Positions 10,717-60,295 of a stretch of 64,000 nt of DNA are shown here, piece after piece. Under the pieces are notes generated by a model that did not search any database, was not told where the DNA came from, and saw only the letters and a program-made list of their open reading frames with translations. How positions within the stretch are numbered: the stretch's first letter is position 1; each line of letters begins with the position of its first letter. The position numbers were made by a program, and so were the translations under genes. The stretch is taken from assembly GCF_023055435.1 (NCBI RefSeq), contig NW_025963879.1, positions 1-64,000 on the forward strand. The letters run 5' to 3'. The stretch comes from Haliotis rufescens (lineage: Eukaryota).

Positions 10717-11934
10717 ATGTTAAAGAAGACATTTGTTGTGATGTTTCCAGTGGTTTTGTTGTTATCAGCCTGTGTTGACAACGTAATGGCTGACACCCAA
10801 GAAAGCCAAAAACAGCTGAACTCGTATCTTGAAACCCGCTTCAATCCCGACGTTCCTCCCATCGACCCACATACCAATGCCATTGATGTACAAATTGCCA
10901 TTGGGCCAGTGCAGGTTCAGGATCTGGTTGATGCTACCCAAGTACTTAAATGCAGAGTGTTTGTGGTGATGAGTTGGAAGGACACATCACTTGCCTGGAA
11001 TGCGTCGGACTACCCCAACGTTGTTCAGACAGAAATCGCTCCACATAAAGCTTGGTCTCCTAATGTGATGTTGTTAAATGCAGCGTTTGGTGATGGTCCT
11101 TTATCGACAACGATGCCCATCACATTAGTCATGGATGGTTCTCTGTATTGGCAGAACATAATCATGGTGTATACAATCTGTAAGACTGATCTGTCCAGAT
11201 ATCCCTTCGATAACCAGACGTGTGACATAACATTCTCATCAGCAATAGGATATCCTGTCATTCTCAATCCATCGGTAATTTCACAAACTCGGGGCCTGAA
11301 GATAAACGCTAACGGAGAGTGGGAAACTAACAATATAACACAGTCGATTCATTCACGTGAAAACGGGACATCATACCAAGCCGCGATCTTTCACATCCAT
11401 CTGTCCAGAAAGTATCTTTTCCACATTTTGAATCTCATCTTCCCGATGTGCCTTCTCTCCTTTCTCAACAGCTTCGTGTTCCTGCTTCCAGCAAGCTCCG
11501 GAGAAAAGATGGGCTACCTCATGGCTGTCTTTGTCTCGAACGCTCTCTTCCTGAGCCTCATCCACGACACTATGCCATCAACCTCTGATTCTGTTTCTAA
11601 CCTCTCTATCTACCAGGTGGCTATCCACATGCAAGGCTTTCTCGCCATCGCTGCCACCATCTTGGTTCAGAACATCTACCACCGACAGCAGAAAACTATG
11701 GAGGAAGGTGCGCATGTAAGATCAAACCACACAAAAGCCATACCTCTTGGCTCCACTGACAATATGGGATCTAGTACCCCAACGCTTCTCAAAGATGGAT
11801 GCAGTCAACCTTCAAATGGACAGAACAGGATCAGGAAGCCTAATGTACCACTGGACATACTTCTGGATGGTATTTTCTTTATTTGTTCTATTATTTTTTC
11901 CATTATTAGCTTATTGTGTCTTCTCCTGGCTTAG
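10717..11934 (+). CDS. Intronless divergent nAChR-like Cys-loop ligand-gated ion channel subunit (paralogue A1)
   Basis: Single ORF with signal peptide (MLKKTFVVMFPVVLLLSAC), WxPN, Cys-loop CKTDLSRYPFDNQTC, NGEW, TM1-LPASSGEK-TM2-TM3, short loop and terminal TM4. Alternative ATG at 10672. Confidence 0.93.
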   Translation: MLKKTFVVMFPVVLLLSACVDNVMADTQESQKQLNSYLETRFNPDVPPIDPHTNAIDVQIAIGPVQVQDLVDATQVLKCRVFVVMSWKDTSLAWNASDYPNVVQTEIAPHKAWSPNVMLLNAAFGDGPLSTTMPITLVMDGSLYWQNIIMVYTICKTDLSRYPFDNQTCDITFSSAIGYPVILNPSVISQTRGLKINANGEWETNNITQSIHSRENGTSYQAAIFHIHLSRKYLFHILNLIFPMCLLSFLNSFVFLLPASSGEKMGYLMAVFVSNALFLSLIHDTMPSTSDSVSNLSIYQVAIHMQGFLAIAATILVQNIYHRQQKTMEEGAHVRSNHTKAIPLGSTDNMGSSTPTLLKDGCSQPSNGQNRIRKPNVPLDILLDGIFFICSIIFSIISLLCLLLA

Positions 11935-13894: not shown

Positions 13895-15387
13895 TACTGA
13901 ACCGCAAAAGAAACGTCACTATGGATAGATATATGAGAAACCGTATTTGTCCAAACACTGTAAACATACTTTAGGACATGAAACTTGGCAAAACTGATCA
14001 TCAAGGTTGAAATAAAAGTGTCAAAAGTTCTTAAAGAGAAACACAACTCTAGTCTCTGAGAAAATGGCATCACAAGTCAGTATCTCGTCTGTCCGCCATG
14101 TGCATTGATGACTGCCGTGCAACGTCGATACATGGAATGGATGAGGCGATTGATAAAGGCCATAGGCACTTGAGCCCACACTCTGAGAAACGCCTGACGC
14201 AGTTCAGCTGCAGTTGTCGGCCTTGGTCTTTGAATCTCGTCCCACAGGTGCTCAATGGGATTTAAATCGGGACTAAGGTCAGACCACTGCATGGTTCTGA
14301 TGCCATTCTGCTGGAGGAAGTCTCTTGCTGTATCATACTGTATCATGTGGTTCCGGCGACGTGCCAAATGAGATATGGCGTGTGGTCTCAAGACTTGATC
14401 AATGTACCGAGCTGCTGTGACAACATTGCCTCTCCCTTGACCGATGTCCTGGAAGACCACAGGGCCGACCCTCTGTGCAAGACCAATTCCACCCCACCAT
14501 GATGCTCGGACCACCCCACGAGTCTCTCTCAACAACACAAGCATCCGAATAATGTTCAGCACGGCATCGCCAGACTCTCACTGCCATCTGCTGTTGATAT
14601 ACAGTAACGGCTCTCGTCTGAGAAGAGGACTCTTCTCCACTGCTGGTGGCGCCAATGCTGGTGCTGTGTTGCCCACTGAAGACGGTCCCGGCGATGACGT
14701 GGTGTCAGAATGGGTCCTCGGTGTGGCCTGTGACAGTTGAGGTGTCTGTTCGTCAATCGTCGACGCACGGTGTCTGCACTAATGTGTCGCTGATGAGTCT
14801 CCATGGTCTGTCGAGCAGTTTCCCCAGCAGTAACAAAGCGATCTTGAAGATGCTGTCGCATAATCTGACGATCCTGACGATCCTGACGTCGGGTGGTGAC
14901 CCTTGGTCTTCCACTACGTGGTCGGTCATCTGTAGTGTTGGTGGTCTGGTACCGTTGTTGGGGCCTGTATATGGTCCTTACGTGGACTTGAAATGCATTG
15001 GCTGCTTGCCGGGCGGTTTGTCCAGCTTAAAATCGTCCAAGGGCTTGGTGTCGCTGATTTCTTGTCAATCTTGGCATGTGGTAGCAATTCAATAACGAAT
15101 GAATGTTATCCGATCTGGGTGGATTTTTATAGGGCAAGAAATGGGGGAACGCATGTGCATTTCAATTTGCTCTGAAGTCACGTGCATCGGGTTACCATGG
15201 CCGTTGCCCTGATGCGTTTGGGCGATCTGTTTTATTGTCATCTGCTTTGGGGGTTTTTAAATCAAATTTCATTATTACGGTCAAGATAATGTTAAATTTT
15301 AGAAACTTTGACAAAAATTTCCCAAATATTTAAATGACAACTTTTCATGCAATGTTACTTTGGTGACGTTTCTTTTGCGGTTCAGTA
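13895..15387 (-). mobile_element. Tc1/mariner DNA transposon, full length, frameshifted transposase
   Basis: Perfect 25-bp TIRs (TACTGAACCGCAAAAGAAACGTCAC) flanked by TA. Transposase ~15077-14077 with FSDESR, SPDLNPIEHLW and GGQTRY. Confidence 0.93.
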
Positions 15388-17294: not shown

Positions 17295-18521
17295 ATGTTG
17301 AGGGGGATGAAGCTGCTGGAGATGTGTGTTGTGCTTGTGTGGTTGTCATCAATCTGTGTTCATGTTGTGGCTGACACCCGAGAGAGTATAAAACAGCTGA
17401 ACTCGTATCTTGAAACCCGCTTCAATCCCGACGTTCCTCCCATCGACCCACAGACCAATGCCATTGAAGTAGATATTATGATTGGGCCAGTGCAGGTTCA
17501 GGATCTGGTTGATGCTACCCAAGTACTTAAATGCAGAGTGTTTGTGGTGATGAGATGGACGGACACATCACTTGCCTGGAATGCGTCGGACTACCCCAAC
17601 GTTGATCAGATAGAAATCGCTCCATATAAAGTTTGGTCTCCAAACGTAGCTTTGGTCAATTCTGCCTCTGGTGATGGTACTTTATCGACACTGATGCCCT
17701 TGATGCTGTTAATGAACGGATCTCTGTTTTGGCAGAACATAATGACTGTCTCTACAATATGCAAAACCGATCTATCTAAATATCCATTTGATAACCAGAC
17801 ATGTGACCTTACATTTACATCGACCTTCGGATATTCCATTATCCTACATCCATATGTGGATTCAAACACATATGGTTTAAAGATAAATGCTAACGGAGAG
17901 TGGGAAACTATCAATATAACACGGTCGGTCTCTCCACAGGATGATCACCAACTACACCAACCTGCAACGTTTTTTATCCATCTGTCCAGAAAGCCTCTTT
18001 TCCATATTTTGAACTTCATTTGTCCGACGTGCCTAGTCTCTTTCCTCAACAGCATCGTGTTCCTGCTGCCAGCAGGCTCTGGAGAAAAGGTGGGCTACGT
18101 CATGGCCGTCTTTGTGTCGAACGCTCTCTTCCTAAGTCTCATCCACGACATCATGCCATCAACCTCTGATACTATTTCTTACCTGTCCCTCTACCTCCTT
18201 GGGATTCAACTCCAAGGCTTTCTCGGAATTGTTGGCACAGTCGTGGTACAGAACGTATACTGTCACCAGCAGAACGCCAAGGAGAATGGAGCACACGTAG
18301 AACCAAATCGAACACCTGCAAGATTGAAGCCGACACAAGTTGTGCCTCTTGACTCGCCTGACACGGTGGAGGATCTCAAAGATCAGACCAGACATCAGTA
18401 TTCAAGAACGAGGGCATGCATGAGACTCCGTAATCTCCCACTGGACAGGGCTTTGGATGGTATTTTCTTCATATGCTCCTTTGGCTTTGCTTTGATCATC
18501 TTTCTCTTGCTAGTTGTATAA
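17295..18521 (+). CDS. Intronless divergent nAChR-like Cys-loop subunit (paralogue A2)
   Basis: Signal peptide, Cys-loop CKTDLSKYPFDNQTC, LPAGSGEK and 4 TM helices. First in-frame ATG is at 17295. Confidence 0.93.
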   Translation: MLRGMKLLEMCVVLVWLSSICVHVVADTRESIKQLNSYLETRFNPDVPPIDPQTNAIEVDIMIGPVQVQDLVDATQVLKCRVFVVMRWTDTSLAWNASDYPNVDQIEIAPYKVWSPNVALVNSASGDGTLSTLMPLMLLMNGSLFWQNIMTVSTICKTDLSKYPFDNQTCDLTFTSTFGYSIILHPYVDSNTYGLKINANGEWETINITRSVSPQDDHQLHQPATFFIHLSRKPLFHILNFICPTCLVSFLNSIVFLLPAGSGEKVGYVMAVFVSNALFLSLIHDIMPSTSDTISYLSLYLLGIQLQGFLGIVGTVVVQNVYCHQQNAKENGAHVEPNRTPARLKPTQVVPLDSPDTVEDLKDQTRHQYSRTRACMRLRNLPLDRALDGIFFICSFGFALIIFLLLVV

Positions 18522-22387: not shown

Positions 22388-23783
22388 TACTCACACACAA
22401 AATAAACGCAAGTGGTTTTAAGCAAATAGGTAACAAACACGGAACCATAAATTGAAACGAGTTTTAGCATGTAGTGAAGCCTGATGGTGTTATCAATATT
22501 TTTGGTTGCATTTTGGAAGCCCCGAGTAAAAACGCAACATAAAAAACACATCGCCAAAATGCACCATTTCAATGAATATATGGGTATCATGCACCCATTT
22601 CTCGCGAAATCAAAAATGCACGAACTGTCACGAACTGTAGTGGGTATAAAAGTGTGGCCGATTCTTGGACCTACCACTCCTTGGTTAACAATGCCACGCC
22701 TAACTCAAATTCAGAGAAACCAGGCTATCGGACGTTTGGAAGCTGGAGAGTCTGTCCAAGATGTTGCCCGTCATTTCAACGTTAACATAACCACAATTTA
22801 CCGTCTCCTGCATCGATACAATGCTACACAGACCACAGATGACCTTCCTCGGAGCGGTCATCCTAGGGTCACCACACCTCGACAAGATCGGCAGACACTG
22901 CGATCCGACGTCTCCGTTCCAACAACCTCAGATGTCGCCGACCAGCACGTCGTCCTGTTCTCCAACCACGGCATCGACAAGCACGACTTCAGTAGGCACA
23001 GGGTCATCGCAATTGGCGTCATCGTAAGTGGAGGCGTGTCATCTTCTCTGATGAAAATCGCTTTTGTGTCTCCCATGCAGACGGAAGAGTCAGAATTTGG
23101 CGACGTCGAGGTGATCGTTTCGCTGACAGAAACGTTGTTGAAAGGGATCCATGAGGTGGACCTAGCGTCATGATATGGGCATGGATTGGACTTAATGCGA
23201 GACTTGGAACCCTGTGCTTTCTGAATGTTGGTCAAGGTCGGGGACACAGCGTCACTGCTCAGCGGTATATCGACAAAGTGATCAGACCCATTTTCAAGCA
23301 GGACAATGTTCGTCCCCATGTTGCCAGAGCTACCATGGCCTTTCTGCAACAACACAACATCCGTGTTCTACCGTGGCCAGCCCTGAGGCCTGATCTGGGA
23401 TGAGGTTCAAAGGCGTCTGCACAATGTGCGCCCAGTCCCTACAACTGCCCATGAACTACGCACAGCTGCTCTGGATGTGTGCAGGAGGATCCCTAGGGCC
23501 TTCACAAATCGTCTGATCCACTCAATGTACAGGAGATGTGTGGCAGTGATCAATGTTAATGGTGGTCACACCAGGTATTGACTGACATTTTGGGTATTGA
23601 CCCTAAAATGCTGTGTAAGCCCTTAACATTTGAAAAAAATAATTATGTCATCTACCTTTTAATCAATTATACTGTCTTCAGTCAATTTTTTGTCAATCTT
23701 GCCCTATTAGTATTTCTTGTCTTTACTGTTGAAAATAAATAACATGTAAACTGCACACCCGACGTTTCTTTTGAGTGTGAGTA
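22388..23783 (+). mobile_element. Tc1 transposon (unit 1 copy), defective
   Basis: ~21-bp imperfect TIRs with TA TSD. Transposase starts MPRLTQIQRNQAIGRLEAG at 22691 and ends GGHTRY at 23581, with frameshifts and a stop. Confidence 0.9.
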
Positions 23784-24574: not shown

Positions 24575-25784
24575 ATGAGCTGCAGTACACTCGCATTCCT
24601 TGTGGCTACATCTCTTGTGTCACTCAGTGCTACTGATGTTGAAGCTGACCGGAGGCAGAGTCTGAAGACCCTCAAGTCTCATCTTGAGACTCTTTTAGAT
24701 CCAGAATTACCACCGATAAATCCACATTCGAATGCTATTGACGTAGCTATTAAAATCGGGCCAGTGCAGGTTCATGATTTGGTTGATACAACCCAAGTTC
24801 TCACACTGGGAACCAATGTGATAATGCATTGGAAAGATGGCTCTAGTTTGGAATACATCTGACTATTCGGACATCAGTAAAATAGAGATATCTCCAGACA
24901 AGGTATGGCAGCCTAATGTGGTTTTGGGGAGCAAGGCTTTTGATGACGGTCCCTTACGGACAACGATGCCCATTCAGTTGAAAAGTGACGGCTCAGTGTC
25001 TTGGCACAACGTCATGACGATTTCAGTGATATGCAAGACCTTCCTCTCAAGATATCCATTTGATAGCCAGATTTGTCCAATGACATTTACCCCAGGAATG
25101 GGATATGACGTAATCCTGCATCCATCCGTCACTTTTTTCACTCGTGGTTTGAAGGTAGACACTAATGGAGAGTGGGAGACTGTCAACGTTACGTCCTCAA
25201 CATCACCCTATGCCGATGGAAGTACATTCCAGGGTGCAATATTCTATGTTCATCTGTCCAGAAAATACTTGTTCCACATCTTGAACCTGGTTTTCCCAAT
25301 GTGCCTACTATCTTTCCTGAACAGCTTCGTTTTCCTTCTGCCGGCTAGCTCGGGGGAGAAGATGGGCTTTCTCATGGCTGTGTTTGTGTCAAACGCACTG
25401 TTCCTCAATCTGATCCACGCTTCCATGCCGTCAACGTCTGATACTGTTTCTAACCTCTCTCTCTACCTCGTCGCAATCCAAATTGAAGGTTTTCTCGCCA
25501 TCGCTGCCACCATCTTGGTACAGAACGTTTACCACTGCCAGATGAACAGGAAGGAGAGCGGTGCAAAGATGACACAGGTTGTGCCTCAGGATTGCCTCCA
25601 GAATGCCATGGCTAGTCCTATCACTGCTGAGACCCCTACCGTGCATACGGATCGCCAACATGGGGAGACAATGAATTACTCAAAAAAGATAATCCCTTCA
25701 CTGGACAGAAAGCTGGATTGTGTTTTCTTTGTATGTTTCACTGTTTTCGCCATTGTAGGCTTATTGTGTCTCATTTTTGGATAA
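24575..25784 (+). pseudogene. nAChR-like subunit copy B1, frameshifted
   Basis: Near-identical to B2-B5, but a 2-bp (AT) deletion at ~24837 (AAAGATGGCT vs AAAGATATGGCT) splits it into ORFs 24566-24862 and 24837-25784. Could be a sequencing error. Confidence 0.85.
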
Positions 25785-31310: not shown

Positions 31311-32705
31311 TACTCACACACAAAATAAACGCAAGTGGTTTTAAGCAAATAGGTAACAAACACGGAACCATAAATTGAAACGAGTTTTAGCATGTAGTGA
31401 AGCCTGATGGTGTTATCAATATTTTTGGTTGCATTTTGGAAGCCCCGAGTAAAAACGCAACATAAAAAACACATCGCCAAAATGCACCATTTCAATGAAT
31501 ATATGGGTATCATGCACCCATTTCTCGCGAAATCAAAAATGCACGAACTGTCACGAACTGTAGGGGGTATAAAAGTGTGGCCGATTCTTGGACCTACCAC
31601 TCCTTGGTTAACAATGCCACGCCTAACTCAAATTCAGAGAAACCAGGCTATCGGACGTTTGGAAGCTGGAGAGTCTGTCCAAGATGTTGCCCGTCATTTC
31701 AACGTTAACATAACCACAATTTACCGTCTCCTGCATCGATACAATGCTACACAGACCACAGATGACCTTCCTCGGAGCGGTCATCCTAGGGTCACCACAC
31801 CTCGACAAGATCGGCAGACACTGCGATCCGACGCCCCGTTCCAACAACCTCAGATGTCGCCGACCAGCACGTCGTCCTGTTCTCCAACCACGGCATCGAC
31901 AAGCACGACTTCAGTGGGCACAGGGTCATCGCAATTGGCGTCATCGTAAGTGGAGGCGTGTCATCTTCTCTGATGAAAGTCGCTTTTGTGTCTCCCATGC
32001 AGACGGAAGAGTCAGAATTTGGCGACGTCGAGGTGATCGTTTCGCTGACAGAAACGTTGTTGAAAGGGATCCATGAGGTGGACCTAGCGTCATGATATGG
32101 GCAGGGATTGGACTTAATGCGAGACTTGGAACCCTGTGCTTTCTGAAAGTTGGTCAAGGTCGGGGACACAGCGTCACTGCTCAGCGGTATATCGACAAAG
32201 TGATCAGACCCATTTTCCAGCAGGACAATGCTCGTCCCCATGTTGCCAGAGCTACCATGGCCTTTCTGCAACAACACAACATCCGTGTTCTACCGTGGCC
32301 AGCCCTGAGGCCTGATCTGGGATGAGGTTCAAAGGCATCTACACAATGTGCGCCCAGTCCCTACAACTGCCCATGAACTACGCACAGCTGCTCTTGATGT
32401 GTGCAGGAGGATGCCTAGGGCCTTCACAAATCGTCTGATCCACTCAATGTACAGGAGATGTGTGGCAGTGATCAATGTTAATGGTGGTCACACCAGGTAT
32501 TGACTGACATTTTGGGTATTGACCCTAAAATGCTGTGTAAGCCCTTAACATTTGAAAAAAATAATTATGTCATCTACCTTTTAATCAATTATACTGTCTT
32601 CAGTCAATTTTTTGTCAATCTTGCCCTATTAGTATGTCTTGTCTTTACTGTTGAAAATAAATAACATGTAAACTGCACACTCGACGTTTCTTTTGAGTGT
32701 GAGTA
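31311..32705 (+). mobile_element. Tc1 transposon (unit 2 copy), defective
   Basis: Same element and flanks. FSDESRF and QQDNARPH are present. Confidence 0.9.
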
Positions 32706-33496: not shown

Positions 33497-34708
33497 ATGA
33501 GCTGCAGTACACTCGTATTCCTTGTGGCTACATCTCTTGTGTCACTCAGTGCTACTGATGTTGAAGCTGACCGGAGGCAGAGTCTGAAGACCCTCAAGTC
33601 TCATCTTGAGACTCTTTTAGATCCAGAATTACCGCCGATAAATCCACATTCGAATGCTATTGACGTAGCTATTGCAATCGGGCCAGTGCAGGTTCATGAT
33701 TTGGTTGATACAACCCAAGTTCTCACACTGGGAACCAATGTGATAATGCATTGGAAAGATATGGCTCTAGTTTGGAATACATCTGACTATTCGGACATCA
33801 GTAAAATAGAGATATCTCCAGACAAGGTATGGCAGCCTAATGTGGTTTTGGGGAGCAAGGCTTTTGATGACGGTCCCTTACGGACAACGATGCCCATTCA
33901 GTTGAAAAGTGACGGCTCACTGTCTTGGCACAACGTCATGACGATTTCAGTGATATGCAAGACCTTCCTCTCAAGATATCCATTTGATAGCCAGATTTGT
34001 CCAATGACATTTACCCCAGGAATGGGATATGACGTAATCCTGCATCCATCCGTCACTTTTTTCACTCGTGGTTTGAAGGTAGACACTAATGGAGAGTGGG
34101 AGACTGTCAACGTTACGTCCTCAACATCACCCTATGCCGATGGAAGTACATTCCAGGGTGCAATATTCTATGTTCATCTGTCCAGAAAATACTTGTTCCA
34201 CATCTTGAACCTGGTTTTCCCAATGTGCCTACTATCTTTCCTGAACAGCTTCGTTTTCCTTCTGCCGGCTAGCTCGGGGGAGAAGATGGGCTTTCTCATG
34301 GCTGTGTTTGTGTCAAACGCACTGTTCCTCAATCTGATCCACGCTTCCATGCCGTCAACGTCTGATACTGTTTCTAACCTCTCTCTCTACCTCGTCGCAA
34401 TCCAAATTGAAGGTTTTCTCGCCATCGCTGCCACCATCTTGGTACAGAACGTTTACCACTGCCAGATGAACAGGAAGGAGAGCGGTGCAAAGATGACACA
34501 GGTTGTGCCTCAGGATTGCCTCCAGAATGCCATGGCTAGTCCTATCACTGCTGAGACCCCTACCGTGCATACGGATCGCAAACATGGGGAGACAATGAAT
34601 TACTCAAAAAAGAGAATCCCTTCACTGGACAGAAAGCTGGATTGTGTTTTCTTTGTATGTTTCACTGTTTTCGCCATTGTAGGCTTATTGTGTCTCATTT
34701 TTGGATAA
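33497..34708 (+). CDS. Intronless nAChR-like Cys-loop subunit copy B2
   Basis: Intact 403-aa ORF from ATG. Cys-loop CKTFLSRYPFDSQIC, GEK and 4 TM helices. Confidence 0.93.
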   Translation: MSCSTLVFLVATSLVSLSATDVEADRRQSLKTLKSHLETLLDPELPPINPHSNAIDVAIAIGPVQVHDLVDTTQVLTLGTNVIMHWKDMALVWNTSDYSDISKIEISPDKVWQPNVVLGSKAFDDGPLRTTMPIQLKSDGSLSWHNVMTISVICKTFLSRYPFDSQICPMTFTPGMGYDVILHPSVTFFTRGLKVDTNGEWETVNVTSSTSPYADGSTFQGAIFYVHLSRKYLFHILNLVFPMCLLSFLNSFVFLLPASSGEKMGFLMAVFVSNALFLNLIHASMPSTSDTVSNLSLYLVAIQIEGFLAIAATILVQNVYHCQMNRKESGAKMTQVVPQDCLQNAMASPITAETPTVHTDRKHGETMNYSKKRIPSLDRKLDCVFFVCFTVFAIVGLLCLIFG

Positions 34709-39590: not shown

Positions 39591-40986
39591 TACTCACACA
39601 CAAAATAAACGCAAGTGGTTTTAAGCAAATAGGTAACAAACACGGAACCATAAATTGAAACGAGTTTTAGCATGTAGTGAAGCCTGATGGTGTTATCAAT
39701 ATTTTTGGTTGCATTTTGGAAGCCCCGAGTAAAAACGCAACATAAAAAACACATCGCCAAAATGCACCATTTCAATGAATATATAGGTATCATGCACCCA
39801 TTTCTCGCGAAATCAAAAATGCACGAACTGTCACGAACTGTAGTGGGTATAAAAGTGTGGCCGATTCTTGGACCTACCACTCCTTGGTTAACAATGCCAC
39901 GCCTAACTCAAATTCAGAGAAACCAGGCTATCGGACGTTTGGAAGCTGGAGAGTCTGTCCAAGATGTTGCCCGTCATTTCAACGTTAACATAACCACAAT
40001 TTACCGTCTCCTGCATCGATACAATGCTACACAGACCACAGATGACCTTCCTCGGAGCGGTCATCCTAGGGTCACCACACCTCGACAAGATCGGCAGACA
40101 CTGCGATCCGACGTCTCCGTTCCAACAACCTCAGATGTCGCCGACCAGCACGTCGTCCTGTTCTCCAACCACGGCATCGACAAGCACGACTTCAGTGGGC
40201 ACAGGGTCATTGCAATTGGCGTCATCGTAAGTGGAGGCGTGTCATCTTCTCTGATGAAAATCGCTTTTGTGTCTCCCATGCAGACGGAAGAGTCAGAATT
40301 TGGCGACGTCGAGGTGATCGTTTCGCTGACAGAAACGTTGTTGAAAGGGATCCATGAGGTGGACCTAGCGTCATGATATGGGCATGGATTGGACTTAATG
40401 CGAGACTTGGAACCCTGTGCTTTCTGAATGTTGGTCAAGGTCGGGGACACAGCGTCACTGCTCAGCGGTATATCGACAAAGTGATCAGACCCATTTTCCA
40501 GCAGGACAATGCTCGTCCCCATGTTGCCAGAGCTACCATGGCCTTTCTGCAACAACACAACATCCGTGTTCTACCGTGGCCAGCCCTGAGGCCTGATCTT
40601 GGATGAGGTTCAAAGGCGTCTGCACAATGTGCGCCCAGTCCCTACAACTGCCCATGAACTACGCACAGCTGCTCTGGATGTGTGCAGGAGGATCCCTAGG
40701 GCCTTCACAAATCGTCTGATCCACTCAATGTACAGGAGATGTGTGGCAGTGATCAATGTTAATGGTGGTCACACCAGGTATTGACTGACATTTTGGGTAT
40801 TGACCCTAAAATGCTGTGTAAGCCCTTAACATTTGAAAAAAATAATTATGTCATCTACCTTTTAATCAATTATACTGTCTTCAGTCAATTTTTTGTCAAT
40901 CTTGCCCTATTAGTATTTCTTGTCTTTACTGTTGAAAATAAATAACATGTAAACTGCACACTCGACGTTTCTTTTGAGTGTGAGTA
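39591..40986 (+). mobile_element. Tc1 transposon (unit 3 copy), defective
   Basis: Same element and flanks. Confidence 0.9.
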
Positions 40987-41777: not shown

Positions 41778-42989
41778 ATGAGCTGCAGTACACTCGTATT
41801 CCTTATGGCTACATCTCTTGTGTCACTCAGTGCTACTGATGTTGAAGCTGACCGGAGGCAGAGTCTGAAGACCCTCAAGTCTCATCTTGAGACTCTTTTA
41901 GATCCAGAATTACCGCCGATAAATCCACATTCGAATGCTATTGACGTAGCTATTACAATCGGGCCAGTGCAGGTTCATGATTTGGTTGATACAACCCAAG
42001 TTCTCACACTGGGAACCAATGTGATAATGCATTGGAAAGATATGGCTCTAGTTTGGAATACATCTGACTATTCGGACATCAGTAAAATAGAGATATCTCC
42101 AGACAAGGTATGGCAGCCTAATGTGGTTTTGGGGAGCAAGGCTTTTGATGACGGTCCCTTACGGACAACGATGCCCATTCAGCTGAAAAGTGACGGCTCA
42201 CTGTCTTGGCACAACGTCATGACGATTTCAGTGATATGCAAGACCTTCCTCTCAAGATATCCATTTGATAGCCAGATTTGTCCAATGACATTTACCCCAG
42301 GAATGGGATATGACGTAGTCCTGCATCCATCCGTCACTTTTTTCACTCGTGGTTTGAAGGTAGACACCAATGGAGAGTGGGAGACTGTCAACGTTACGTC
42401 CTCAACATCACCCTATGCCGATGGAAGTACATTCCAGGGTGCAATATTCTATGTTCATCTGTCCAGAAAATACTTGTTCCACATCTTGAACCTGGTTTTC
42501 CCAATGTGCCTACTATCTTTCCTGAACAGCTTCGTTTTCCTTCTGCCGGCTAGCTCGGGGGAGAAGATGGGCTTTCTCATGGCTGTGTTTGTGTCAAACG
42601 CACTGTTCCTCAATCTGATCCACGCTTCCATGCCGTCAACGTCTGATACTGTTTCTAACCTCTCTCTCTACCTCGTCGCAATCCAAATTGAAGGTTTTCT
42701 CGCCATCGCTGCCACCATCTTGGTACAGAACGTTTACCACTGCCAGATGAACAGGAAGGAGAGCGGTGCAAAGATGACACAGGTTGTGCCTCAGGATTGC
42801 CTCCAGAATGCCATGGCTAGTCCTATCACTGCTGAGACCCCTACCGTGCATACGGATCGCAAACATGGGGAGACAATGAATTGCTCAAAAAAGAGAATCC
42901 CTTCACTGGACAGAAAGCTGGATTGTGTTTTCTTTGTGTGTTTCACTGTTTTCGCCATTGTAGGCTTATTGTGTCTCATTTTTGGATAA
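41778..42989 (+). CDS. Intronless nAChR-like Cys-loop subunit copy B3
   Basis: Intact ORF, near-identical to B2. Confidence 0.93.
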   Translation: MSCSTLVFLMATSLVSLSATDVEADRRQSLKTLKSHLETLLDPELPPINPHSNAIDVAITIGPVQVHDLVDTTQVLTLGTNVIMHWKDMALVWNTSDYSDISKIEISPDKVWQPNVVLGSKAFDDGPLRTTMPIQLKSDGSLSWHNVMTISVICKTFLSRYPFDSQICPMTFTPGMGYDVVLHPSVTFFTRGLKVDTNGEWETVNVTSSTSPYADGSTFQGAIFYVHLSRKYLFHILNLVFPMCLLSFLNSFVFLLPASSGEKMGFLMAVFVSNALFLNLIHASMPSTSDTVSNLSLYLVAIQIEGFLAIAATILVQNVYHCQMNRKESGAKMTQVVPQDCLQNAMASPITAETPTVHTDRKHGETMNCSKKRIPSLDRKLDCVFFVCFTVFAIVGLLCLIFG

Positions 42990-51324: not shown

Positions 51325-52536
51325 ATGAGCTGCATTACACTCGTATTCCTTGTGGCTACATCTCTTGTGTCACTCAGTGCTACTGATGTTGAAGCTGACC
51401 GGAGGCAGAGTCTGAAGACCCTCAAGTCTCATCTTGAGACTCTTTTAGATCCAGAATTACCGCCGATAAATCCACATTCGAATGCTATTGACGTAGCTAT
51501 TAAAATCGGGCCAGTGCAGGTTCATGATTTGGTTGATACAACCCAAGTTCTCACACTGGGAACCAATGTGATAATGCATTGGAAAGATATGGCTCTAGTT
51601 TGGAATACATCTGACTATTCGGACATCAGTAAAATAGAGATATCTCCAGACAAGGTATGGCAGCCTAATGTGGTTTTGGGGAGCAAGGCTTTTGATGACG
51701 GTCCCTTACGGACAACGATGCCCATTCAGTTGAAAAGTGACGGCTCACTGTCTTGGCACAATGTCATGACGATTTCAGTGATATGCAAGACCTTCCTCTC
51801 AAGATATCCATTTGATAGCCAGATTTGTCCAATGACATTTACCCCAGGAAAGGGATATGACATAATCCTGCATCCATCCGTCATTTTTTTCACTCATGGT
51901 TTGAAGGTAGACACTAATGGAGAGTGGGAGACTGTCAACGTTACGTCCTCAACATCACCCTATGCCGATGGAAGTACATTCCAGGGTGCAATATTCTACG
52001 TTCATCTGTCCAGAAAATACTTGTTCCACATCTTGAACCTGGTTTTCCCAATGTGCCTACTATCTTTCCTGAACAGCTTCGTTTTCCTTCTGCCGGCTAG
52101 CTCGGGGGAGAAGATGGGCTTTCTCATGGCTGTGTTTGTGTCAAACGCACTGTTCCTCAATCTGATCCACGCTTCCATGCCGTCAACGTCTGATACAGTT
52201 TCTAACCTCTCTCTCTACCTCGTCGCAATCCAAATTGAAGGTTTTCTCGCCATCGCTGCCACCATCTTGGTACAGAACGTTTACCACTGCCAGATGAACA
52301 GGAAGGAGAGCGGTGCAAAGATGACACAGGTTGTGCCTCAGGATTGCCTCCAGAATGCCATGGCTAGTCCTATCACTGCTGAGACCCCTACCGTGCATAC
52401 GGATCGCCAACATGGGGAGACAATGAATTGCTCAAATAAGAGAATCCCTTCACTGGACAGAAAGCTGGATTGTGTTTTCTTTGTATGTTTCACTGTTTTC
52501 GCCATTGTAGGCTTATTGTGTCTCATTTTTGGATAA
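51325..52536 (+). CDS. Intronless nAChR-like Cys-loop subunit copy B4
   Basis: Intact ORF, near-identical to B2. Confidence 0.93.
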   Translation: MSCITLVFLVATSLVSLSATDVEADRRQSLKTLKSHLETLLDPELPPINPHSNAIDVAIKIGPVQVHDLVDTTQVLTLGTNVIMHWKDMALVWNTSDYSDISKIEISPDKVWQPNVVLGSKAFDDGPLRTTMPIQLKSDGSLSWHNVMTISVICKTFLSRYPFDSQICPMTFTPGKGYDIILHPSVIFFTHGLKVDTNGEWETVNVTSSTSPYADGSTFQGAIFYVHLSRKYLFHILNLVFPMCLLSFLNSFVFLLPASSGEKMGFLMAVFVSNALFLNLIHASMPSTSDTVSNLSLYLVAIQIEGFLAIAATILVQNVYHCQMNRKESGAKMTQVVPQDCLQNAMASPITAETPTVHTDRQHGETMNCSNKRIPSLDRKLDCVFFVCFTVFAIVGLLCLIFG

Positions 52537-59083: not shown

Positions 59084-60295
59084 ATGAGCTGCATTACACT
59101 CGCATTCCTTATGGCTACATCTCTTGTGTCACTCAGTGCTACTGATGTTGAAGCTGACCGGAGGCAGAGTCTGAAGACCCTAAAGTCTCATCTTGAGACT
59201 CTTTTAGATCCAGAATTACCACCGATAAATCCACATTCGAGTGCTATTGACGTAGCTATTACAATCGGGCCAGTGCAGGTTCATGATTTGGTTGATACAA
59301 CCCAAGTTCTCACACTGGGAGCCAATGTGATAATGCATTGGAAAGATATGGCTCTAGTTTGGAATACATCTGACTATTCGGACATCAGTAAAATAGAGAT
59401 ATCTCCAGACAAGGTATGGCAGCCTAATGTGGTTTTGGCGAACAAGGCTTTTGATGACGGTCCCTTACGGACCACAATGCCCATTCAGTTGACAAGTGAC
59501 GGCTCACTGTCTTGGCACAATGTCATGACGATTTCAGTGATATGCAAGACCTTCCTCTCAAGATATCCATTTGATAGCCAGATTTGTCCAATGACATTTA
59601 CCCCAGGAATGGGATATGACATAATCCTGCATCCATTCGTCAATTTTTTAACTCATGGTTTGAAGGTAGACACTAATGGAGAGTGGGAGACTGTCAACGT
59701 TACGTCCTCAACATCAACCTTTGCCAATGGAGGTACATTCCAGGGTGCAATATTCTACGTTCATCTGTCCAGAAAATACTTATTCCACATCTTGAACCTG
59801 GTTTTCCCAATGTGCCTACTGTCTTTCCTGAACAGCTTCGTTTTCCTTCTGCCTGCTAGCTCGGGGGAGAAGATGGGCTTTCTCATGGCTGTGTTTGTGT
59901 CAAACGCACTGTTCCTCAATCTGATCCACGATTCCATGCCGTCAACGTCTGATACAGTTTCTAACCTCTCTCTCTACCTCGTCGCAATCCAAATCGAAGG
60001 TTTTCTCGCCGTCGCTGCCACCATCTTGGTACAGAACGTTTACCACTGCCAGATGAACAGGAAGGAGAGCGGTGCAAAGATAACACAGGTTGTGCCTCAG
60101 GATTGCCTCCAGAATGCCATGGCTAGACCTATCACTGCTGAGACCCCTACCGTGCATACGGATCGCAAACATGGGGAGACAATGAATTACTCAAAAAAGA
60201 GAATCCCTTCACTGGACAGAAAGCTGGATTGTGTTTTCTTTGTATGTTTCACTGTTTTCGCCATTGTGGGCTTATTGTGTCTCATTTTTGGATAA
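59084..60295 (+). CDS. Intronless nAChR-like Cys-loop subunit copy B5 (most divergent B copy)
   Basis: Intact ORF. Differs from B1-B4 mainly in extracellular loops and at the M2 20' position. Confidence 0.93.
   Translation: MSCITLAFLMATSLVSLSATDVEADRRQSLKTLKSHLETLLDPELPPINPHSSAIDVAITIGPVQVHDLVDTTQVLTLGANVIMHWKDMALVWNTSDYSDISKIEISPDKVWQPNVVLANKAFDDGPLRTTMPIQLTSDGSLSWHNVMTISVICKTFLSRYPFDSQICPMTFTPGMGYDIILHPFVNFLTHGLKVDTNGEWETVNVTSSTSTFANGGTFQGAIFYVHLSRKYLFHILNLVFPMCLLSFLNSFVFLLPASSGEKMGFLMAVFVSNALFLNLIHDSMPSTSDTVSNLSLYLVAIQIEGFLAVAATILVQNVYHCQMNRKESGAKITQVVPQDCLQNAMARPITAETPTVHTDRKHGETMNYSKKRIPSLDRKLDCVFFVCFTVFAIVGLLCLIFG

What the first reader, a model, noticed from the sequence alone, without database searches (positions are those of the whole stretch)
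10810..11060. Gene-conversion-like tract between A1 and A2 in which all differing codons are replacements
10810-11060 and 17391-17641 are identical at silent sites. By hand I count 10 differing codons, all amino-acid changing (H/Q, D/E, Q/D, A/M, S/R, K/T, V/D, T/I, H/Y, A/V), several in beta1/beta2 (loops G and D). Outside the tract the two genes differ at many silent sites, for example in the Cys-loop codons. This suggests recent homogenisation combined with selection keeping or creating different ligand-facing residues.
Basis: partly seen in the sequence, partly recalled or inferred. Interest (0 to 1): 0.7.

Follow-up and report, generated by a model that had tools for sequence, protein, structure and literature searches.

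The report
Gene-converted abalone receptor pair re-diverging
Two neighbouring abalone genes for nicotinic-receptor-like ion channels share a 250-base stretch that one copy likely overwrote in the other by gene conversion; all ten codons that differ there change the amino acid, but at least three are not fixed in the species and only three sit at fast-evolving predicted ligand-pocket positions, so selection for new ligands is plausible, not shown.

Summary
Observation confirmed. Two intronless Cys-loop genes (A1 10717-11934, A2 17295-18521) differ at 13 bases in 10 codons over 83 codons, all replacements; silent differences are 0 of 69 inside versus 67 of 183 outside (permutation p~1e-5). Public contigs of two species split at the tract edges, so it is real gene conversion, not mis-assembly.

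The selection claim is weaker. dN/dS>1 is borderline (p 0.015-0.07; 0.15 counting one silent step). H53, Y111 and A113 are not fixed in the species, a mixed R87-K89 haplotype exists, and a related species adds two silent changes (11 replacement : 2 silent, p~0.3). Only V104D and T106I are seen as paralog differences in both species.

In favour: codons 60, 62 and 87 carry 6 of the 13 changes and map to loop G/D columns that evolve fast across 49 young paralog comparisons in this genome (loops G+D+E omega~1.56).

Such tracts are common in the family (46 of 284 pairs), mostly over the channel domain. This is a new instance of known processes; the scan noted similar pairs in a mussel and a scallop.

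The parts
10717..11934 (+). Gene A1: single-exon Cys-loop channel subunit, 405 aa, lacking the acetylcholine-binding aromatics and loop C cysteines
   Evidence: Open ORF; Pfam PF02931 + PF02932; alignments to nAChR alpha1; fold matches nAChRs
17295..18521 (+). Gene A2: tandem paralog, 408 aa, same orientation, 6.58 kb downstream
   Evidence: same protein as P0002
10809..11060 (+). Conversion tract, A1 copy (codons 33-115 in A2 numbering: helix 1 to just before loop A)
   Evidence: 0 of 69 silent differences, permutation p~1e-5; class-blind borders; contig breaks at the edges
17390..17641 (+). Conversion tract, A2 copy
10885..10899 (+). Codons 58, 60, 62 (beta1, loop G region; alpha1 30/32/34): 6 of the 13 base differences; A2 copy at 17466-17480
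   Evidence: strand E30-45 of the model; family omega 0.33, 1.58, 1.26
10972..10980 (+). Codons 87 and 89 (beta2, end of loop D; alpha1 59/61); all four S/R x K/T combinations occur across runs; A2 copy at 17553-17561
   Evidence: family omega 1.68 and 0.19
11023..11031 (+). Codons 104 and 106 (start of beta3): the only two paralog differences seen in both organisms; A2 copy at 17604-17612
   Evidence: X15, X17, X7, X3
10870..10872 (+). Codon 53: H in the reference and X3, Q on the A1-like path of X1 and X7; not fixed
17625..17627 (+). A2 codon 111: Y in the reference and X5, H in X3, X7, X15, X17; not fixed
11050..11052 (+). A1 codon 113: A in the reference, X1 and X5; V in X14, X15 (listed) and in X3, X7, X17 (inferred from letter counts); not fixed

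Best explanation
The block is a real, recent sequence exchange between two old tandem paralogs, most likely interlocus gene conversion, and its all-replacement differences are likely a mixture of a few pocket-lining changes favoured by selection (codons 60, 62, 87), unfixed variants (53, 111, 113) and a low draw of silent changes. Shown: the duplicates are old (silent divergence 0.50 outside) while 83 codons are silent-identical. Inferred mechanism: homologous repair of one gene from the other, 6.58 kb away in the same orientation, copied helix 1 to beta3 at about or shortly before the split from organism B (about 5% silent divergence). The restored 44-74 base perfect matches likely allow further very short exchanges, such as the R87-K89 haplotype. 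The receptors lack the acetylcholine site and likely detect another ligand. The outward face of beta1/beta2 is predicted to line the subunit-interface pocket, where the family as a whole diversifies. Direction of transfer is not resolved.
For: Conversion: 0 of 69 vs 67 of 183 silent differences. The same region is not silent-constrained against B2 (24 of 45 and 22 of 43). No third A-like copy was found in G000. Contigs of 7 runs from 2 organisms hold the shared block, and in 6 of them it is a separate contig starting at the same left edge. Such tracts are common in the family (46 of 284 pairs). Age: organism B differs from A1 at 7 of 143 silent sites outside the tract; 104 and 106 differ between paralogs in both organisms. 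Short exchange: S-K, R-K, R-T in X7 at depths 8, 5, 15.9, and S-T in organism B. Selection at the pocket: columns 60, 62, 87 rank 19, 25, 17 of 201 in 49 young-paralog comparisons that exclude A1/A2; 3 of 10 in the top-25 set P 0.035; loops G+D omega 1.41 (P 0.015), G+D+E 1.56 (P 1e-4), inward positions 0.36. Codon 62 is K/A/T/K/T in the five young B copies. 10:0 is unlikely at the family's omega 0.5 for this region (P 0.004-0.009). Codon 62 likely corresponds to octopus CRT1 L37, whose mutation abolishes responses (offset; passage).
Against: Tract omega is not significantly above 1 after removing unfixed codons or adding organism B. With the A-B silent clock it is about 1.3 for the reference pair and 0.6-0.75 over four lineages (rough, contigs undercount). 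The five beta1/beta2 codons as one set have family omega 1.0; 58 and 89 have 0.26. The loop sets were defined from canonical numbering but after I had seen the ranking; the comparisons are not fully independent and use simple counting. The two differences shared by both organisms (104, 106) are not pocket positions. The 2- and 3-base codons could be single multinucleotide mutations (10.1101/165969, start of abstract seen). The R-K haplotype rests on one contig of depth 5 in one run. No ligand, expression or functional data.
Confidence: 0.55

Rival explanations
1. One conversion followed by near-neutral drift in a weakly constrained extracellular domain; the lack of silent changes is chance, and several replacements are transient polymorphisms.
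For: P(0 silent of 10) is 0.04-0.07 at omega 1 and 0.02-0.03 at 0.76. The young B copies have extracellular omega 0.76 (20 N, 8 S); 10:0 vs 20:8 gives P 0.08. At least 3 of 10 are unfixed. Organism B has 2 silent changes in the tract. The region was picked for looking striking. The ten sites are variable columns anyway (3.6 vs 2.3 residues in 7 outgroups).
Against: Family omega for this region is 0.5, not 1. Six of 13 changes fall in three columns with family omega 1.3-1.7. Both ORFs are intact and the transmembrane part is constrained.
Confidence: 0.27
2. Repeated conversion keeps wiping silent differences while selection rejects events that cover old functional differences, so the replacements are retained rather than new (the red/green opsin pattern).
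For: Zero silent differences where about 2.8 are expected if exchange stopped at the A-B split (P 0.06). 104 and 106 persist in both organisms. Codons 58-62 hold 6 differences in 13 bases, like unconverted sequence. All four 87/89 combinations exist. Depth of the shared contig is near full two-gene depth in X15 (0.92) and X7 (1.07).
Against: Organism B carries D58-D60-A62 and S87-T89, mixtures of the reference A1 and A2 states, so some differences arose after the split or were exchanged in pieces under 10 bases. Unfixed H53, Y111, A113 are absent from organism B. Depth is noisy (X17 0.67 with the same path as X15).
Confidence: 0.14
3. Assembly artefact: reads of one gene were polished into the other.
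For: Tandem paralogs near a contig start; the B array beside them is 95-98% identical.
Against: Independent short-read contigs from 7 runs and 2 organisms show the same shared block with gene-specific flanks; X3 reproduces all 9 A1 letters in 17390-17604 at the expected depth (0.72 vs 0.75).
Confidence: 0.02
4. Silent sites are held constant by a DNA- or RNA-level constraint rather than by exchange.
For: None beyond the silent identity itself.
Against: The same codons differ silently from B2 at about 50%, and organism B has two silent changes there.
Confidence: 0.02

Closest known systems
Expanded intronless, tandem nAChR-like genes of molluscs (Jiao et al. 2019, PMC6896357; passages read)
   Same: Single-exon genes in a tandem array with a divergent ligand-binding domain; 142 further hits in this genome, 130 with ORFs of 330 aa or more.
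   Different: That paper's main text has no mention of gene conversion, positive selection or Haliotis (one search counts). Here conversion tracts and pocket-focused divergence are measured.
Cephalopod chemotactile receptors, e.g. octopus CRT1 (10.1101/2025.10.28.685082 and 10.1101/2025.03.03.641191; passages read)
   Same: nAChR-derived, without the acetylcholine aromatic box; fast evolution at pocket positions, including the beta1 positions likely matching CRT1 L37/Y39.
   Different: A1 is no closer to CRT1 (E 1e-30) than to vertebrate nAChRs (E 5e-37); no CRT1 entry among the 33 rows shown by the fold search. Expression, ligand and function untested.
Interlocus gene conversion with selection-maintained differences, e.g. 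red/green opsins (review PMC3924837; passages read)
   Same: Old paralogs with a locally homogenised block in which the remaining differences are amino-acid changing.
   Different: In opsins the functional exon escapes conversion and is shared across species. Here the converted block itself covers half of the predicted pocket, and only 2 of 10 differences are seen in both organisms.

Membership tests
Cys-loop pentameric ligand-gated ion channel | Ligand-binding domain with Cys-loop plus four transmembrane helices | tested here: met
   PF02931 and PF02932 above cut-off; invariant C129/C143; model pLDDT 85.8 matches nAChRs, TM about 0.77
Acetylcholine-binding nAChR alpha subunit | Loop A Tyr93, loop B Trp149, loop C vicinal cysteines and tyrosines, loop D Trp55 | tested here: not met
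   L/V at 93, no Trp at 149, no vicinal cysteines, F at 55
Molluscan intronless tandem nAChR-like expansion | Coding sequence in one exon, in a tandem array | tested here: met
   Full ORFs for A1, A2 and four B copies within 50 kb; introns in untranslated regions not tested
Cephalopod chemotactile receptor clade | Phylogenetic grouping with CRs | tested here: inconclusive
   No tree with CRs was built; similarity does not favour CRT1
Cephalopod chemotactile receptor clade | Sensory-epithelium expression and gating by non-acetylcholine ligands | not testable with these tools
   No RNA holder listed; no assay possible
Interlocus gene-conversion tract | Sharply bounded loss of silent divergence between paralogs, not shared with outgroup comparisons, present in independent data | tested here: met
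Tract under positive selection | dN/dS significantly above 1 among fixed differences | tested here: inconclusive
   P 0.015-0.07 in the reference; 0.11-0.16 for 7 codons; 0.26-0.38 with organism B

The most novel reading that the evidence does not exclude
Abalone's 130-plus intronless nAChR-like genes are an independently evolved ionotropic chemoreceptor repertoire. Gene conversion usually standardises their channel half, but in A1/A2 it reset half of the ligand pocket, and selection rebuilt two specificities within about 5% silent divergence through three residues (60, 62, 87). That would give a natural minimal pair for mapping ligand specificity.
Probability: 0.2. Interest if true: 0.62.

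Novelty: new member of a known kind. Interest (0 to 1): 0.33.

Why it matters
As it stands it is a clean case of gene conversion in a known expanded family, and a caution: an all-replacement tract in one haplotype overstates selection, since several differences are unfixed. The more useful result is family-wide: young paralogs diverge fastest at predicted pocket loops while conversion mostly covers the channel domain, the signature expected of orphan chemoreceptors. If A1 and A2 differ in ligand through codons 60, 62 and 87, the pair is a small experimental handle on gastropod ionotropic chemosensation, which a 2026 preprint names as untested (10.64898/2026.05.05.723003, passages). Three searches of the open library found no paper on these genes in abalone (by listing, 0 papers); subscription journals and bioRxiv supplements were not searchable.

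Tried and rejected
No RNA holder was listed; this says nothing on expression. Orthologous A1/A2 pairs from other named species were not found: only an H. rubra fused model with an A2-like ectodomain (P0001) and an H. asinina protein (P0003), so no codon model across species could be run. Direction of conversion is unresolved: A1 and A2 are each 64 of 83 identical to P0001 in the tract. Contig depth as a test of full homogenisation in organism B was inconclusive (X15 0.92, X17 0.67; reference-like state expects about 0.73; controls X3 0.72, X1 0.73; X7 1.07). My first reading that organism B has H at codon 60 came from a truncated table and was corrected to D. A third-paralog donor was rejected: the next closest copies are 67-68% identical in DNA. 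Other converted extracellular blocks do not all show the excess: silent:replacement codons 2:5, 4:6, 0:4, 0:9 in four pairs, two of which share a gene. In the family analysis 12 of 142 loci were dropped for ORFs under 330 aa, and the frameshifted B1 was not included. GENECONV, RDP and codeml were not run; permutation and counting tests were used instead. No complex prediction was attempted.

Full report
What the genes are. A1 (10717-11934, 405 aa) and A2 (17295-18521, 408 aa) are single-ORF Cys-loop channel subunits, followed by five more distant B copies. Named relatives are abalone proteins; P0007, labelled Haliotis rufescens, is 98% identical over a third of A1. The AlphaFold model (pLDDT 85.8) matches nicotinic receptors. 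The acetylcholine-binding Tyr93, Trp149, loop C cysteines and Trp55 are absent, so the ligand is likely something else. Codon numbers below follow A2; alpha1 mature number = codon minus 28.

The observation. Silent-informative codons differ in 0 of 69 inside and 67 of 183 outside; 100,000 permutations never reached that run. A finder blind to mutation class gives the same borders on the extracellular domain. Against B2 the same codons differ silently at 24 of 45 and 22 of 43, so silent sites are not constrained. No closer third copy was found in G000. Contigs from 7 public runs of two organisms hold the shared block between gene-specific flanks, which excludes an assembly artefact. Gene conversion is the straightforward reading.

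Is dN/dS above 1? In the reference alone, the chance of no silent event among 10 codon events at omega 1 is 0.04-0.07, or 0.015-0.03 counting 13 bases; Fisher's test gives 0.03-0.15 depending on how the three-base codon is scored. That is borderline. It is clearly above the family's omega of 0.5 for this region, but the young B copies already show 0.76 in their extracellular domain.

What other animals show. Contigs collapse simple bubbles, so they show presence of a haplotype, not absence. In organism A, the A1-like path has Q53 in X1 and X7 but H53 in X3; A2 has H111 in X3 and X7 but Y111 in X5; A1 has V113 in X3 and X7 (inferred from three rather than four differing letters) but A113 in X1 and X5. 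So three of ten differences are unfixed, and none lines the pocket. X7 holds S87-K89, R87-K89 and R87-T89 at depths 8, 5 and 15.9; X5's contig breaks at the same place (17554), which fits but does not resolve it. Organism B (X14, X15, X17) carries Q53-H55-D58-D60-A62 and S87-T89, mixtures of the reference states, plus silent changes at 10926 and 11016; its two genes differ at 104 and 106 as here and agree at 111 and 113. With 7 codons left P is 0.11-0.16; with organism B added (11 replacement codons, 2 silent) it is 0.26-0.38. Organism B is about 4.9% from A1 at silent sites outside the tract (7 of 143 listed), which predicts 2.8 silent paralog differences if exchange stopped at the split (P of none 0.06). 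All four 87/89 combinations require a very short exchange or a repeated mutation.

Family test. All 142 other hits in G000 were taken; 130 had ORFs of 330 aa or more. Of 284 pairs at silent divergence 0.15-0.65, 46 have long silent-free runs; by my grouping most lie over the transmembrane domain (7 clusters) and fewer over the N-terminal ectodomain (4 clusters including this one) (pairs are not independent). In 49 comparisons among young paralogs, omega is 0.23 in the transmembrane part, 0.5 in the tract region and 0.7 in the rest of the ectodomain; the fastest columns fall in loops C, E, B, D and G by alpha1 numbering (loop labels recalled; loop D and G roles seen in passages of PMC4006026). 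Loops G+D give 1.41 (P 0.015) and G+D+E 1.56 (P 1e-4), inward-facing neighbours 0.36; these sets were drawn after seeing the ranking. Codons 60, 62 and 87 rank 19, 25 and 17 of 201 and hold 6 of the 13 tract changes; 58, 89 and the other five rank 73-151. Codon 62 takes three residues among the five B copies and likely matches CRT1 L37, inferred from alignment offsets only.

Mechanism. Shown: old duplication, local loss of silent divergence, unfixed variants, fast family columns. Inferred: homologous repair copied helix 1 to beta3 around the time of the A-B split; later short exchanges use the restored identity; selection likely drove change at 60, 62 and 87; drift and polymorphism supply the rest. 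Multi-base codons could also be single multinucleotide events (abstract start). Ligand, tissue and direction of transfer are untested.

Comparison and verdict. The genes belong to the known intronless tandem expansion of molluscan nAChR-like genes (PMC6896357), work plausibly like octopus chemotactile receptors without shown membership, and follow known conversion-plus-selection theory (PMC3924837). Unreviewed scan notes describe similar converted pairs in a mussel and a scallop. I found no paper on these abalone genes in the open library; only main-text passages were read, no supplements. Verdict: real conversion tract, overstated selection claim, new member of a known kind; interest 0.33.

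Noticed in passing
window 24575-25784, 33497-34708, 41778-42989, 51325-52536, 59084-60295: Five B-type copies, four of them in 8-9 kb units 95-98% identical including flanks; the first has a 2-base deletion at codon 88. Extracellular 20 replacement: 8 silent changes, transmembrane 2: 5.
   Followed up: yes
G000 clusters, e.g. L023/L083-L085, L036/L046-L049/L056/L057, L028/L032/L121/L122: Conversion-like tracts over the transmembrane domain, up to 101 codons with no difference at all, between paralogs whose ligand domains are 20-40% diverged at silent sites.
   Followed up: partly
L129/L131, L148/L149, L026/L037/L038: Other N-terminal ectodomain conversion-like blocks; L037/L038 has 9 replacement and 0 silent codons in 46, a second candidate of the same kind.
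   Followed up: partly
window 11308-11379 and 11536-11598: Shorter A1/A2 runs without silent differences (11 and 10 codons; exact runs of 22, 17, 18 bases), possibly older or smaller exchanges, not significant alone. At 11330 organism B and X5 carry the A2-like base.
   Followed up: partly
P0001, P0007: Public gene models are wrong here: the H. rubra model fuses an A1-like C-terminus to an A2-like gene (same order as in the window), and the model of A1 skips the Cys-loop to TM1 although the ORF is open.
   Followed up: no
window 17757-17759: X3 and X7 appear to carry Met instead of Ile at A2 codon 155, next to the first Cys-loop cysteine (loose-end consensus).
   Followed up: no
window 14077-15026, 22478-23403, 31401-32289, 39681-40376: Broken ORFs resembling Tc1/mariner transposase (recalled resemblance, not searched); 14.0-15.4 kb is high-copy in the laid runs.
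   Followed up: no
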